Source: Amoebidium appalachense (lineage: Eukaryota; Protista; Ichthyosporea). Taken from it: a DNA stretch of 64,000 nt. The first letter of the stretch is position 1, and every line of letters begins with the position of its first letter. Location of the stretch: NCBI GenBank assembly GCA_963693365.1, contig CAVNZM010000003.1, positions 12,187,651-12,251,650 on the forward strand. The letters are read 5' to 3'. Both the position numbers and the translations under genes were made by a program. Below the pieces are notes generated by a model. The model was not told where the DNA came from, made no database searches, and saw only the letters and a list, made by a program, of their open reading frames with translations. Below are positions 30,601 to 32,686 of the stretch, one piece after another.

Positions 30601-32686
30601 GGAGAAGGGGGGGGGAGGAGGGGGGGGGGTATCTGTGCGCCAAACTTTCTCACGGTCATGCATACTCTTGAGTAACTGCAAGTGTCTGTGGCTGTGTGTT
30701 TTTTTCACTGAGACAGGCGTCTCCCTCCCATGGGCCAGCAAAAAAGTGACAATGATAGCCAAAAAAGAACAAACGAGGGAGAGTGGATAGATCAAGGGAG
30801 GGAGGGAGGAGAGGGGGGGGGGGGGGGGGGGGGGTTTGAATGCGGAACACAGTACGAAGTACGCATACACGATGAGAAGCATGGTGCAGGACACATGCAA
30901 AGGCAAACATTCAAGTATGCAGCATCAGCCATGCGCACAGTATGCGTCATAAGCAGAGCCCATCCTCAGGGAGGGCCCAAGTCATCAATTGCGTCTGAGT
31001 TTCGACCCCTTAGCCCGCGTATATACGACGCTCCAACTCAGACAGCAGCATCAACTGAACTTGGGTGGGTCAACCCGTCTTGATCAAAGACGAGCAGGGT
31101 TGCTTATGCAAGCAAGGTGAGCAAAACGGTGAAGATGTATGTGCAAACTAATGCAGTGCAGCGACAAACGCGTATGTGCTTACAGATGCACGACACAGAG
31201 CAACCATGCCCGGTTGCATGGAAGTAAAGATGTCTCCACACAGTGGTCTGTCCTGAAAGGACACCTCTGAAAGAAGACAGGGGGGGTTTGAATGCGGAAC
31301 ACAGTACGAAGTACGCATACACGATGAGAAGCATGGTGCAGGACACATGCAAAGGCAAACATTCACGTATGCAGCATCAGCCATGCGCACAGTATGCGTC
31401 ATAAGCAGAGCCCATCCTCAGGGAGGGCCCAAGTCATCAATTGCGTCTGAGTTTCGACCCCTTAGCCCGCGTATATACGACGCTCCAACTCAGACAGCAG
31501 CATCAACTGAACTTGGGTGGGTCAACCCGTCTTGATCAAAGACGAGCAGGGTTGCTTATGCAAGCAAGGTGAGCAAAACGGTGAAGATGTATGTGCAAAC
31601 TAATGCAGTGCAGCGACAAACGCGTATGTGCTTACAGATGCACGACACAGAGCAACCATGCCCGGTTGCATGGAAGTAAAGATGTCTCCACACAGTGGTC
31701 TGTCCTGAAAGGACACCTCTGAAAGAAGACAGGGGGGGTTTGAATGCGGAACACAGTACGAAGTACGCATACACGATGAGAAGCATGGTGCAGGACACAT
31801 GCAAAGGCAAACATTCAAGTATGCAGCATCAGCCATGCGCACAGTATGCGTCATAAGCAGAGCCCATCCTCAGGGAGGGCCCAAGTCATCAATTGCGTCT
31901 GAGTTTCGACCCCTTAGCCCGCGTATATACGACGCTCCAACTCAGACAGCAGCATCAACTGAACTTGGGTGGGTCAACCCGTCTTGATCAAAGACGAGCA
32001 GGGTTGCTTATGCAAGCAAGGTGAGCAAAACGGTGAAGATGTATGTGCAAACTAATGCAGTGCAGCGACAAACGCGTATGTGCTTACAGATGCACGACAC
32101 AGAGCAACCATGCCCGGTTGCATGGAAGTAAAGATGTGGGGGGGGGGGGAGGAAGCGAGGAAGCAAGAGAAGGAAGGCAGAACCTAGATAGGGAGGGAGA
32201 AGTAAAGGGAGGAAAGGGGGAAGGGTAGCAGGCAGGCAGGAAAGGTGGGCCATGATGCAAGGAGCCAACCGGAGGGGGCACGAACCAGGGGGTGCTGAAG
32301 GGCCCCAATAAGTGAGACCCGGAGGCGAGAAAAAAAATCTTAGCTTTGTTAGTGGGGCTTCCACGATGGTACACCCGACCTTGCCCCTTGACCAGGAGGT
32401 GTGTGCGGGAAGGCAAGGGGGGGAAGGGGGGGGGGGGGGGGGGGGGGGGGGGGGGGGGAGGGAACCTTGGAGAAAGCGAAGGAGAGAGTGGGGGGGGGGA
32501 GAGGGGGGGGGGGGGGGGGAGGGGGGGATCTGGCCAAGGTGAAGGCGCACGCACCTTTATGGTGTAGTCGTTGGGGTTGGGCTGGGGCGGGTGCATAACC
32601 ACCTGGCCCAGTGCTGTTGGACAGAACGCACCAAGCAGCCCCCAGGCACACAGGCCACACCAGGCCAATAGTGTAAGGGGAGTCAT
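18697..32686 (-). CDS. Multi-exon secreted protein with two beta-sandwich/Ig-like repeats, function unknown
   Basis: Signal-peptide exon 32686-32555 (MTPLTLLAWCGLCAWGLLGAFCPTALG). In-phase exons 30143-30023, 29540-29457, ~25153-25058, ~24456-24415, ~24012-23982, further exons at ~23.6k, 22.8k, 22.3k, 21.9k, 21.3k, 20.3k and a last exon ~18900-18697. Repeated motif GPWQVSYVIAADNFG / GTWQVTQVRLVDAAGN. Confidence 0.65.
19679..20264 (-). mobile_element. Family A tandem array, 1.3 units (449-bp period), in poly(G)
   Basis: Unit starts at 19679 and 20128; both ends abut G runs. Confidence 0.92.
25502..29400 (-). mobile_element. Penelope-like retroelement (Naiad/Chlamys-type RT), 5'-truncated, ~2.1-kb 3' UTR (family B)
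   Basis: RT ORF followed by a UTR whose distal ~1.3 kb recurs at 58902-60140; both ends abut poly(G); lies in intron 3 of the host gene. Confidence 0.85.
27623..29400 (-). CDS. PLE reverse transcriptase (N-terminally truncated; no GIY-YIG present)
   Basis: Motifs GHVLT, DKASNTFVIVCK..Y, KMHK..FRFIA, FDFSTLYT, QDIGIPMGTNCAVFLANFYL, RYIDDL, PYLDL; ORF stops after the thumb domain, as expected when the endonuclease is N-terminal. Confidence 0.92.
30186..30246 (-). mobile_element. Family B 3'-terminal fragment (~60 bp)
   Basis: Identical to 25502-25561; G-run flanks. Confidence 0.85.
30835..32137 (-). mobile_element. Family A tandem array, 2.9 units of 452 bp (non-autonomous, retrozyme-like)
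   Basis: Units start at 30835, 31287 and 31739, are near-identical and are separated by G7; no credible ORF; poly(G) on both sides. Confidence 0.95.

What the first reader, a model, noticed from the sequence alone, without database searches (positions are those of the whole stretch)
30835..32137. 452-bp retrozyme-like unit with a rolling-circle insertion signature
Seen: three family A loci (2949, 19679, 30835) all begin at the same base next to poly(G) but extend 0.4, 1.3 and 2.9 units. Units are joined by G6-7. Variants are array-specific: both 19.7-kb units read TTCAACTATG, while the 30.8-kb units read TTCAAGTATG (one TTCACGTATG) and all share GATGTATGTG and CGCGTATGTG. There is no ORF. Known: retrozymes are non-autonomous, hammerhead-bearing tandem retroelements with circular RNA intermediates. 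Inference: a circular 452-nt RNA is primed at its C7 run by a nicked genomic G-strand and copied round the circle by the PLE RT for a variable distance.
Basis: partly seen in the sequence, partly recalled or inferred. Interest (0 to 1): 0.85.

Follow-up and report, generated by a model that had tools for sequence, protein, structure and literature searches.

The report
Retrozyme with a rewired hammerhead ribozyme
This 452-base tandem repeat is a non-coding passenger of a Penelope-type jumping gene in a single-celled relative of animals; each unit carries a predicted self-cutting RNA with its parts in a scrambled order that standard searches miss, so the repeat likely spreads through small RNA circles, although neither the cutting nor the circles have been shown.

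Summary
In detail: 2.88 head-to-tail copies of a 452-bp non-coding unit, plus 1.3- and 0.43-unit copies, all start at one base beside poly(G). [quoted passage not shown] It is therefore a non-autonomous Chlamys partner, 5'-truncated, in (C)n targets. No type I/II/III hammerhead is present. The element-sense strand does carry all hammerhead core bases in non-nested order (site-GAAA-CUGAnGA), with helix II supplied by a separate strand. This is matched in 11 of 20,000 shuffles, shows compensatory changes between unit and partner, and recurs in 2 of 17 tails of distant relatives and, by eye, in published Naiad tails said to lack hammerheads. The fold lies in a predicted 369-nt intron across the unit junction. 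Cleavage, ligation and rolling-circle copying is my best guess (about 0.42), barely ahead of an uncut linear multimer (about 0.38). Cleavage and circles are untested.

The parts
30835..32137 (-). Family A array, 2.88 units of 452 bp (30835-31286, 31287-31738, 31739-32137); fixed 3' end at 30835, 5'-truncated at 32137
30813..30834 (+). G22 flank: the (C)n target on the element strand, inferred primer strand for target-primed reverse transcription
   Evidence: target type from PMC8557442
32138..32149 (+). G12 flank at the truncated end; any target duplication is hidden in the G-run
30938..31121 (-). Predicted permuted, split hammerhead domain of unit 1 (repeats at +452 and +904): outer stem, 7-bp hairpin, helix II 5' strand 31071-31067, predicted cut between 31035 and 31034, GAAA 31003-31000, CUGAGGA 30969-30963
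31280..31286 (-). C7 junction run (also 31732-31738): inferred RT start, and the first part of the unit's best polypyrimidine tract
31267..31635 (-). Predicted 369-nt intron across the unit boundary: the unit's only GTRAG donor (31635; 31183 in unit 1) to the acceptor AG ending at 31267; it contains the ribozyme domain, the terminus and C7
   Evidence: one contig of run X12 leaves the element at 31636 (table 7)
19679..20264 (-). Family A insertion, 1.30 units, G6 junction, both units share the G>C allele
2949..3141 (-). Family A insertion, 0.43 unit, 7 differences, two of them inside the CUGAnGA block; ends about 7 nt short of the predicted cut site
25502..29400 (-). Family B: 5'-truncated copy of the autonomous Chlamys-type Penelope-like element, poly(G) on both sides
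27623..29398 (-). [quoted passage not shown]
25577..25755 (-). Same predicted hammerhead domain in the 3' UTR of family B (cut between 25670 and 25669)
30187..30246 (-). Family B 3' end, 60 bp, short target duplication with one mismatch
54431..54527 (-). Family B 3' end, about 98 bp
58897..60140 (+). Family B 3' end, about 1.25 kb
60529..60880 (+). Family B 3' end, 352 bp, with a clear target duplication of about 14 bp ending in a G-run
61959..62239 (+). Family B 3' end, 281 bp

Best explanation
The 452-bp unit is a non-coding element that shares its 3' end with a Chlamys-type Penelope-like retrotransposon of Amoebidium and likely borrows its enzyme; each unit holds a predicted rewired hammerhead that would cut read-through RNA into 452-nt monomers, which would be ligated to circles and copied round by the borrowed reverse transcriptase. 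Shown in the sequence: the common 3' end beside G-runs, variable 5' truncation, target duplications, the shared 180-nt block, the RT gene, and all hammerhead core bases with pairing helices. Inferred: the GIY-YIG domain nicks a G-run and the G-rich 3' end pairs with C7; copying starts at the AAA next to C7 and runs for 0.4 to 2.9 turns. Also inferred: an RNA cut inside the predicted intron can no longer be spliced, so the template keeps the intron, and more than one turn rebuilds the upstream copy that holds the promoter. Odds by step: Chlamys passenger about 0.93; real hammerhead-type fold about 0.85; arrays made on circles about 0.42.
For: Partner: A and B share the terminus and 81% over 181 nt. 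The B RT is identical to a transcriptome protein with GIY-YIG at residues 27-79 (E 3e-4, 21.3 bits, just under Pfam's 22.6 cut-off), no CxxC inside it, plus CxC and DKA motifs. One branch with SH-aLRT 100 separates all 5 CCHH-less from all 19 CCHH proteins among 54 (quick tree). Insertion pattern: 9 of 9 A and B copies start within a T or two of the same base after G-rich flanks and end at different places; 2 of 6 B copies show readable target duplications. Ribozyme: an any-order descriptor finds one hit per unit, on the element-sense strand only, with helices I/II/III of 4/5/8 bp in A and 3/6/12 bp in B. It hits 11 and 15 of 20,000 shuffles, and all 8 hits in the window are A or B copies. Helix I (A-U to G-C) and helix II (C-G to U-A) each show a two-sided change between A and B (strands), and the long stem has 3 more. 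The same order recurs in 2 of 17 tails of distant relatives, sense strand only; 0 of 400 shuffled sets give two such hits and 0 arise in 288 kb of unrelated DNA. L053 folds to the same scaffold with an unrelated sequence. The cut site lies 200 nt (A) or 168 nt (B) from the RT start, yet 2 of 3 A and 4 of 6 B copies run past it, so the template was uncut or re-ligated. Arrays share minority alleles: about 20%, 6% and 0.3% of summed contig depth in X1, X3 and X8 for the 30.8-kb allele, and about 7%, 3% and 0% for the 19.7-kb allele. Animal retrozymes form circles (PMC7229834 discussion).
Against: No RNA circle and no cleavage was observed; contigs cannot show either. In vitro, a Poseidon PLE protein used uncut RNA, hammerhead mutants inserted normally, and the start site was not homologous to the target (PMC11167929). 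The predicted ribozyme has weak features: a GUU site, a 3-4 bp helix I, a break between A9 and G10.1 that Eckert et al. assumed cannot occur, and a competing hairpin over the core in the free fold of A. Validated SGC ribozymes are slow, 0.007-0.13 per min, and 8 of 9 Xenopus retrozyme dimers did not cleave in vitro. The middle unit's A>C allele has summed depth in the thousands in X1 against 12-31 on single-copy flanks, so it seems shared with other loci, which fits a mixed multimeric source as well as a circle. A and B are related, so their agreement is one comparison; on that two-row alignment 56 of 500 shuffles reach the same covariation, and the structure was drawn from these sequences. 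15 of 17 relative tails gave no hit, among them both CCHH-less loci L051 and L052. The whole unit folds no better than shuffles (z -1.6 linear, -1.4 circular).
Confidence: 0.42

Rival explanations
1. Same element and enzyme, but the template is an uncut, unspliced linear RNA read through a tandem source array. The RT starts internally at a C-run and stops at random. The ribozyme is slow, protein-gated, or serves another step such as trimming transcripts.
For: PMC11167929: internal initiation, hammerhead not needed in vitro, multi-copy mRNA proposed. [quoted passage not shown] The middle-unit allele looks multi-copy. Chlamys tails without CUGAnGA exist (L051, L052; Chlamys-1 and -2_cRei by eye).
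Against: Linear read-through alone shortens arrays each generation and needs a separate lengthening step. The 30.8-kb insertion would need three intact ribozyme sites in one RNA. It does not explain why core bases and helices are kept in a non-coding passenger.
Confidence: 0.38
2. Arrays arise at the DNA level, by unequal exchange or slippage between units, or by repeated insertion into the G-run beside an earlier copy.
For: Local duplication also gives array-specific alleles. A few X1 contigs join a truncated unit through a G-rich linker to a new start (depth 30-262). The 2026 preprint favours satellite-type local amplification for retrozymes.
Against: Junction runs are tightly G7 (G6 and G5 about 6% and 4% of depth in X3) while flanking runs range from 5 to 24. 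Independent insertion would rarely repeat a minority allele in every unit. Each array has one fixed end and one ragged end.
Confidence: 0.12
3. The RT copies a linear monomer repeatedly, re-pairing the G-run it has just made with the template C-run, as telomerase and DRT2 do on linear templates.
For: PLE RTs are sister to telomerase. DRT2 makes concatemers from a linear RNA by template jumps (PMC12039810 passages). Junction length varies by one or two G.
Against: It needs a template with a C-run at both ends, and the predicted cut is 200 nt away from C7. An X12 contig runs across the junction (record 16), though that run may hold DNA. No pile-up of ends was listed (table 6).
Confidence: 0.08

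Closest known systems
Non-autonomous Chlamys Penelope-like elements such as MRC1 and Chlamys-N4_cRei (PMC8557442, parts 1-6 of 10 and supplement parts 1, 2, 28 read; 10.1101/2022.05.23.493040 and PMC9940879, passages)
   Same: No ORF, 3' end shared with an autonomous N-terminal GIY-YIG PLE, (C)n target, strong 5' truncation, head-to-tail copies, and a predicted intron across the pLTR/body boundary.
   Different: The host is an ichthyosporean opisthokont; the 49 Chlamys-sheet entries are green-lineage or Physarum. This unit carries a predicted hammerhead, whereas Chlamys are described as lacking canonical ones except in Chara and Selaginella.
Non-LTR retrozymes of animals (PMC7229834, passages and discussion; 10.64898/2026.07.22.740005, parts 1-3 of 5)
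   Same: Non-coding tandem units of a few hundred bases, one hammerhead-type motif per unit, sequence shared with a PLE end, proposed mobilisation by PLE enzymes.
   Different: They are defined by type I hammerheads and shown to make circles; this unit has no type I fold and no circle is shown. GC is 51% against under 45-50%. The host is unicellular and the partner is Chlamys-type.
Type-SGC and type-CSG non-circularly permuted hammerheads (Eckert et al. 2023, PMC10085705, abstract and parts 3-6 of 8)
   Same: Block order site-GAAA-CUGAnGA, all core bases, a link from helix I into helix II, and an extra stem tying the other sides together.
   Different: There the CUGAnGA block runs straight into helix II. 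Here that strand comes from upstream, with an outer stem and a 7-bp hairpin between A9 and G10.1, and a palindromic hairpin sits in the I-to-II link. Their SGC and CSG examples came from metatranscriptomes or metagenomes, none from a known organism's genome.
Poseidon PLE of Anolis (PMC11167929, parts 1-2 of 4)
   Same: Internal start of reverse transcription giving a fixed end; a hammerhead near the start site.
   Different: C-terminal endonuclease, AT-rich targets, canonical hammerhead, start site not homologous to the target.

Membership tests
Chlamys PLE (autonomous partner B) | N-terminal GIY-YIG domain without the CCHH motif | tested here: met
   Full-length identical transcriptome protein: GIY-YIG at 27-79, E 3e-4, slightly under the curated cut-off, no CxxC inside. 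The window copy itself is truncated and lacks this part.
Chlamys PLE (autonomous partner B) | CxC motif, DK(A) motif, insertion-in-fingers region | tested here: met
   CPC and DKA found; motif A-to-B spacing 93 aa against 77-81 in three Naiad-type proteins.
Chlamys PLE (autonomous partner B) | Falls outside the Naiad clade, with Chlamys | tested here: inconclusive
   Outside the 39-row CCHH clade (SH-aLRT 100, quick tree, 54 of 120 listed homologs of 690 aa or more). No named Chlamys reference was in the tree.
Non-autonomous Chlamys element (unit A) | No ORF; 3' similarity to an autonomous family; (C)n target; 5' truncation; head-to-tail copies | tested here: met
Non-autonomous Chlamys element (unit A) | Mobilised in trans by that family's protein; polymorphic insertions | not testable with these tools
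   No genome held; the empty-site test gave only a hint in X8.
Non-LTR retrozyme | Type I hammerhead in each unit | tested here: not met
   Rfam: none at gathering score and only a 14-bit half match in B. Type I/II/III descriptor: 0 hits in A, while 100 of 100 synthetic controls of each type were recovered.
Non-LTR retrozyme | Non-coding tandem unit related to a PLE end | tested here: met
Non-LTR retrozyme | Self-cleavage and circular RNA | not testable with these tools
   Only contigs were available.
Type-SGC hammerhead | All core bases, helices I-III, block order S-G-C | tested here: met
Type-SGC hammerhead | CUGAnGA directly followed by the helix II strand | tested here: not met
   The Watson-Crick helix II strand lies upstream of the cleavage block in A, B and L053. 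A contiguous alternative gave at most 1 bp with a mismatch at 10.1/11.1.
Type-SGC hammerhead | Site-specific cleavage lost in the core mutant | not testable with these tools
   Needs an in vitro assay.

The most novel reading that the evidence does not exclude
This is a new kind of retrozyme, in a unicellular relative of animals, built on a split, non-circularly permuted hammerhead that is the 'missing' ribozyme of the Naiad/Chlamys clade. The ribozyme sits inside the pLTR intron and sorts each transcript into one of two fates: spliced into message, or cut and ligated into a circle that the telomerase-related RT copies round from a G-run primer. That would explain PLE intron retention and tandem pLTR formation in one step.
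Probability: 0.3. Interest if true: 0.88.

Novelty: new variant of a known kind. Interest (0 to 1): 0.7.

Why it matters
How Penelope-like elements build tandem pseudo-LTRs and keep their introns is an open question, and Naiad/Chlamys elements were reported to lack canonical hammerheads, with some holding unexplained 'core' or 'half-core' motifs. A small, high-copy, non-coding unit with one predicted ribozyme per repeat, a predicted cut site and an expressed partner protein in a culturable protist makes circle-versus-linear directly testable. If the fold cleaves, it adds a hammerhead architecture with a break at a position assumed to be unbreakable, found in eukaryotic genomes rather than only in metatranscriptomes. 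It would also extend Chlamys-type elements and retrozyme-like units to Ichthyosporea. If it does not cleave, the finding reduces to an ordinary non-autonomous Chlamys element in a new host lineage.

Tried and rejected
No whole genome is held, so array starts and lengths could not be tabulated genome-wide.

Rfam gave no family at gathering score in the window and only chance-level matches in A and B. ARAGORN found no tRNA.

A terminus pattern gave 41 metagenome matches, none with a poly(G) flank or further similarity, so all were treated as chance, and 0 viral matches. The protein alignment found no relatives in viral contigs. It found 27 loci in prokaryote assemblies, likely eukaryotic contamination; 17 whose RT match reaches the C-terminal region were scanned and 10 were left out.

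No RNA holder was listed on record; X12 and X13 are RNA by guess only. X13 had no cover on the single-copy flanks. Contig depth falls from the 3' to the 5' end of the unit, but the tool warns it cannot rank parts, so I draw nothing from it.

Empty site: no contig bridged it. One X8 contig has 7 unaligned letters left of the G12 flank, which is a hint only.

A hot spot of 5' ends at 32137 was considered because 11 X8 contigs end near it, and rejected: the G12 in the reference inflates that count.

The sequence joined to the donor in X12 is not in the window, so splicing is not proven; a related family branching at that base is possible. Splicing cannot yield a 452-nt circle (only 83 or 535 nt by my count). 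A concatemer-built long ORF is absent.

My first reading, that there is no hammerhead at all, was dropped. The tree is the quick search; the careful one did not finish.

Not in print as far as these searches go: Amoebidium+Penelope 0 papers; Chlamys+Penelope+Ichthyosporea 0; searches listed none describing this fold. The main text of the Amoebidium genome paper PMC11244446 has no word beginning with 'PLE' (passages); its supplements were not read and may list these repeats. Supplements of PMC10085705 were not read and those of the bioRxiv preprints are closed. PMC13725137, PMC13159263, PMC3846280 and PMC6765202 were seen as passages only.

Full report
Observation. The repeat is as described. 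Tandem Repeats Finder gives period 452, 2.9 copies and 99% matches at 30828-32137. The three family-A loci are 193, 586 and 1303 bp long and start at the same base after G-rich flanks, with junctions of G7, G7 and G6. The array-specific variants are correct. There is no ORF above 84 aa. In four laid runs the family is very abundant: 15,096, 10,195 and 5,302 contigs in three DNA runs, against depth 9-31 on the single-copy flanks of X1 and X8. Thousands of copies is my inference from this; summed depth is not a copy number.

What it belongs to. A second family, B, shares the terminus and a 181-nt block at 81%. Its longest copy (25502-29400) runs into an RT reading frame on the minus strand, so both families read on that strand and the shared 'start' is their 3' end. 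The RT is 591/591 identical to an EukProt protein of Amoebidium parasiticum, an ichthyosporean. The full protein has an N-terminal GIY-YIG match without the CxxC of Naiads, plus CxC and DKA motifs. In a quick tree of 54 homologs, one branch with SH-aLRT 100 separates the 5 CCHH-less proteins from the 19 with CCHH. These are the marks of Chlamys elements, which target (C)n, are often 5'-truncated and have non-autonomous partners with multicopy head-to-tail insertions (PMC8557442). All 9 A and B copies have one fixed end and one ragged end, and two B copies show target duplications ending in a G-run. This is ordinary target-primed retrotransposition by a known kind of element, in a host lineage missing from that paper's table.

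The ribozyme question. Rfam and a type I/II/III descriptor find nothing in A, although the descriptor recovered 100 of 100 synthetic controls of each type. A 14-bit half match in B led me to free the strand order. An any-order descriptor then found exactly one arrangement per unit, on the element-sense strand: a helix II strand, the cleavage block (GUU), the GAAA block, then the CUGAGGA block. It is met by 11 and 15 of 20,000 dinucleotide shuffles of A and B, and all 8 hits in the window are A or B copies. A and B differ by two-sided changes in helices I and II and by three more in the long stem, although two rows cannot make that significant (56 of 500 shuffles). The independent test is better. 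Among 17 tails of distant relatives, L053 has the same order and L059 its circular permutation, on the sense strand only; 0 of 400 shuffled sets give two such hits, and 288 kb of unrelated DNA gives none. Constrained folding gives A and L053 the same scaffold: an outer stem closing next to A9, a 7-bp hairpin before G10.1, and a long helix III whose far end links back to helices I and II. B fits it less cleanly in that run.

Published relatives, read by eye. Among 30 CTGATGA places shown from the Craig supplement (places 25-54 of 62), 7 show the same split layout: three near-identical Acropora tails, two Octopus tails and two others. Two nematode tails there, and one, show an intact CSG order. 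Most of the remaining places lie in coding sequence or are canonical hammerheads. The block order is that of the validated type-SGC ribozymes, but Eckert et al. assumed the CUGAnGA block cannot be interrupted and found no SGC or CSG example in a known organism's genome (PMC10085705). The fold is not universal: 15 of 17 tails had no hit, including both CCHH-less loci, and two Chlamydomonas tails show no CUGAnGA by eye. After these tests I found five unchecked AI notes reporting the same fold in animal Naiads; they agree but are not independent support, and none concerns a Chlamys element or a protist.

A predicted intron. On the element-sense strand the C7 junction opens the unit's best 3' splice site (16 of 17 pyrimidines; 56 of 5,000 shuffles), and the unit has a single GTRAG donor. 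The donor motif alone is common in shuffles (2,352 of 5,000), but one contig of the putative RNA run X12 leaves the element exactly at that donor. The 369-nt intron would span the unit boundary, as the 398-bp intron of Chlamys-3_cRei spans its pLTR boundary, and it would contain the ribozyme and the RT start. Genomic units keep it. This rests on one contig in a run whose RNA status is a guess.

Mechanism. The predicted cut lies 200 nt (A) or 168 nt (B) from the RT start, and 6 of 9 copies run past it, so the template was either uncut or re-ligated. Units of one array share minority alleles, which argues for one template or one source. I put cleavage, ligation and rolling-circle copying slightly ahead (0.42), because a conserved ribozyme per non-coding unit mirrors animal retrozymes, which make circles, and because it accounts for intron retention and for rebuilding the upstream copy. 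An uncut linear multimer is nearly as likely (0.38): a PLE protein initiates internally on uncut RNA and does not need its hammerhead in vitro, the predicted fold has weak features and a competing hairpin, and the middle unit's private allele appears in several loci. DNA-level duplication (0.12) and telomerase-like re-priming (0.08) are less likely.

Verdict. The unit is a member of the non-autonomous Chlamys kind by every feature I could test. It works like a retrozyme if the fold cleaves, but it fails the type I test for membership. The ribozyme is SGC-like but not a strict SGC. Overall this is a new variant of a known kind, with a cheap decisive experiment; interest 0.7.

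Noticed in passing
window 6808-6913: A third, diverged family C end between G-rich flanks; it shares the terminus motif and the outer-stem block but reads GGGAGGA in place of CUGAGGA close to its truncation point. Another related terminus appears as a loose end in X13.
   Followed up: partly
window 31022-31011 and 25664-25655 (approx.), minus strand: The linker between helices I and II holds a perfect 10-bp palindrome in both A and B with different sequences, a possible dimerisation or kissing site.
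   Followed up: no
window 31060-31045 with 30990-30980 (approx.), minus strand; same place in B: By eye, the internal loop of the long stem fits a kink-turn (3-nt bulge, tandem GA) in both A and B; L053 has a different internal loop there. The motif is recalled and was not scored by any search.
   Followed up: no
P0001 and P0121: Two transcriptome forms of the partner protein (938 and 1054 aa) differ only at the N-terminus, like the two isoforms described for Chlamys-3_cRei; this could also be an assembly truncation.
   Followed up: no
window 25986, minus strand: Family B has the same GTAAGC donor-like hexamer 485 nt from its 3' end; Chlamys-1 and -2_cRei tails also show donor-like sites by eye.
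   Followed up: partly
window 26300-27620: The 3' UTR of family B carries long (CA)n, A, (AG)n and G tracts, and part of it recurs in the copy at 58897-60140.
   Followed up: no
window 35025-37983, 45289-46593, 8282-8836: A separate element with an RVT_1 reverse transcriptase (E 2e-28) and two shorter copies of its 3' part at 97-98%.
   Followed up: no
window 39198-43198: LTR-type remnant: a gag-like frame followed by an integrase frame (Integrase_H2C2, rve); no RT frame was seen between them.
   Followed up: no
window 10513-11427: Intronless CD225/dispanin-domain frame of 304 aa.
   Followed up: no
L042-L068: 27 Naiad/Chlamys-type RT loci sit in assemblies labelled bacterial, some on contigs of 0.6-1.5 Mb; likely eukaryotic contamination. 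L046 and L047 hold several tandem ORF copies with in-frame stops.
   Followed up: partly
P0009: A fern (Ceratopteris richardii) protein is among the closest named relatives of the RT (35% over 73%); ferns are not in the Chlamys host table read.
   Followed up: no
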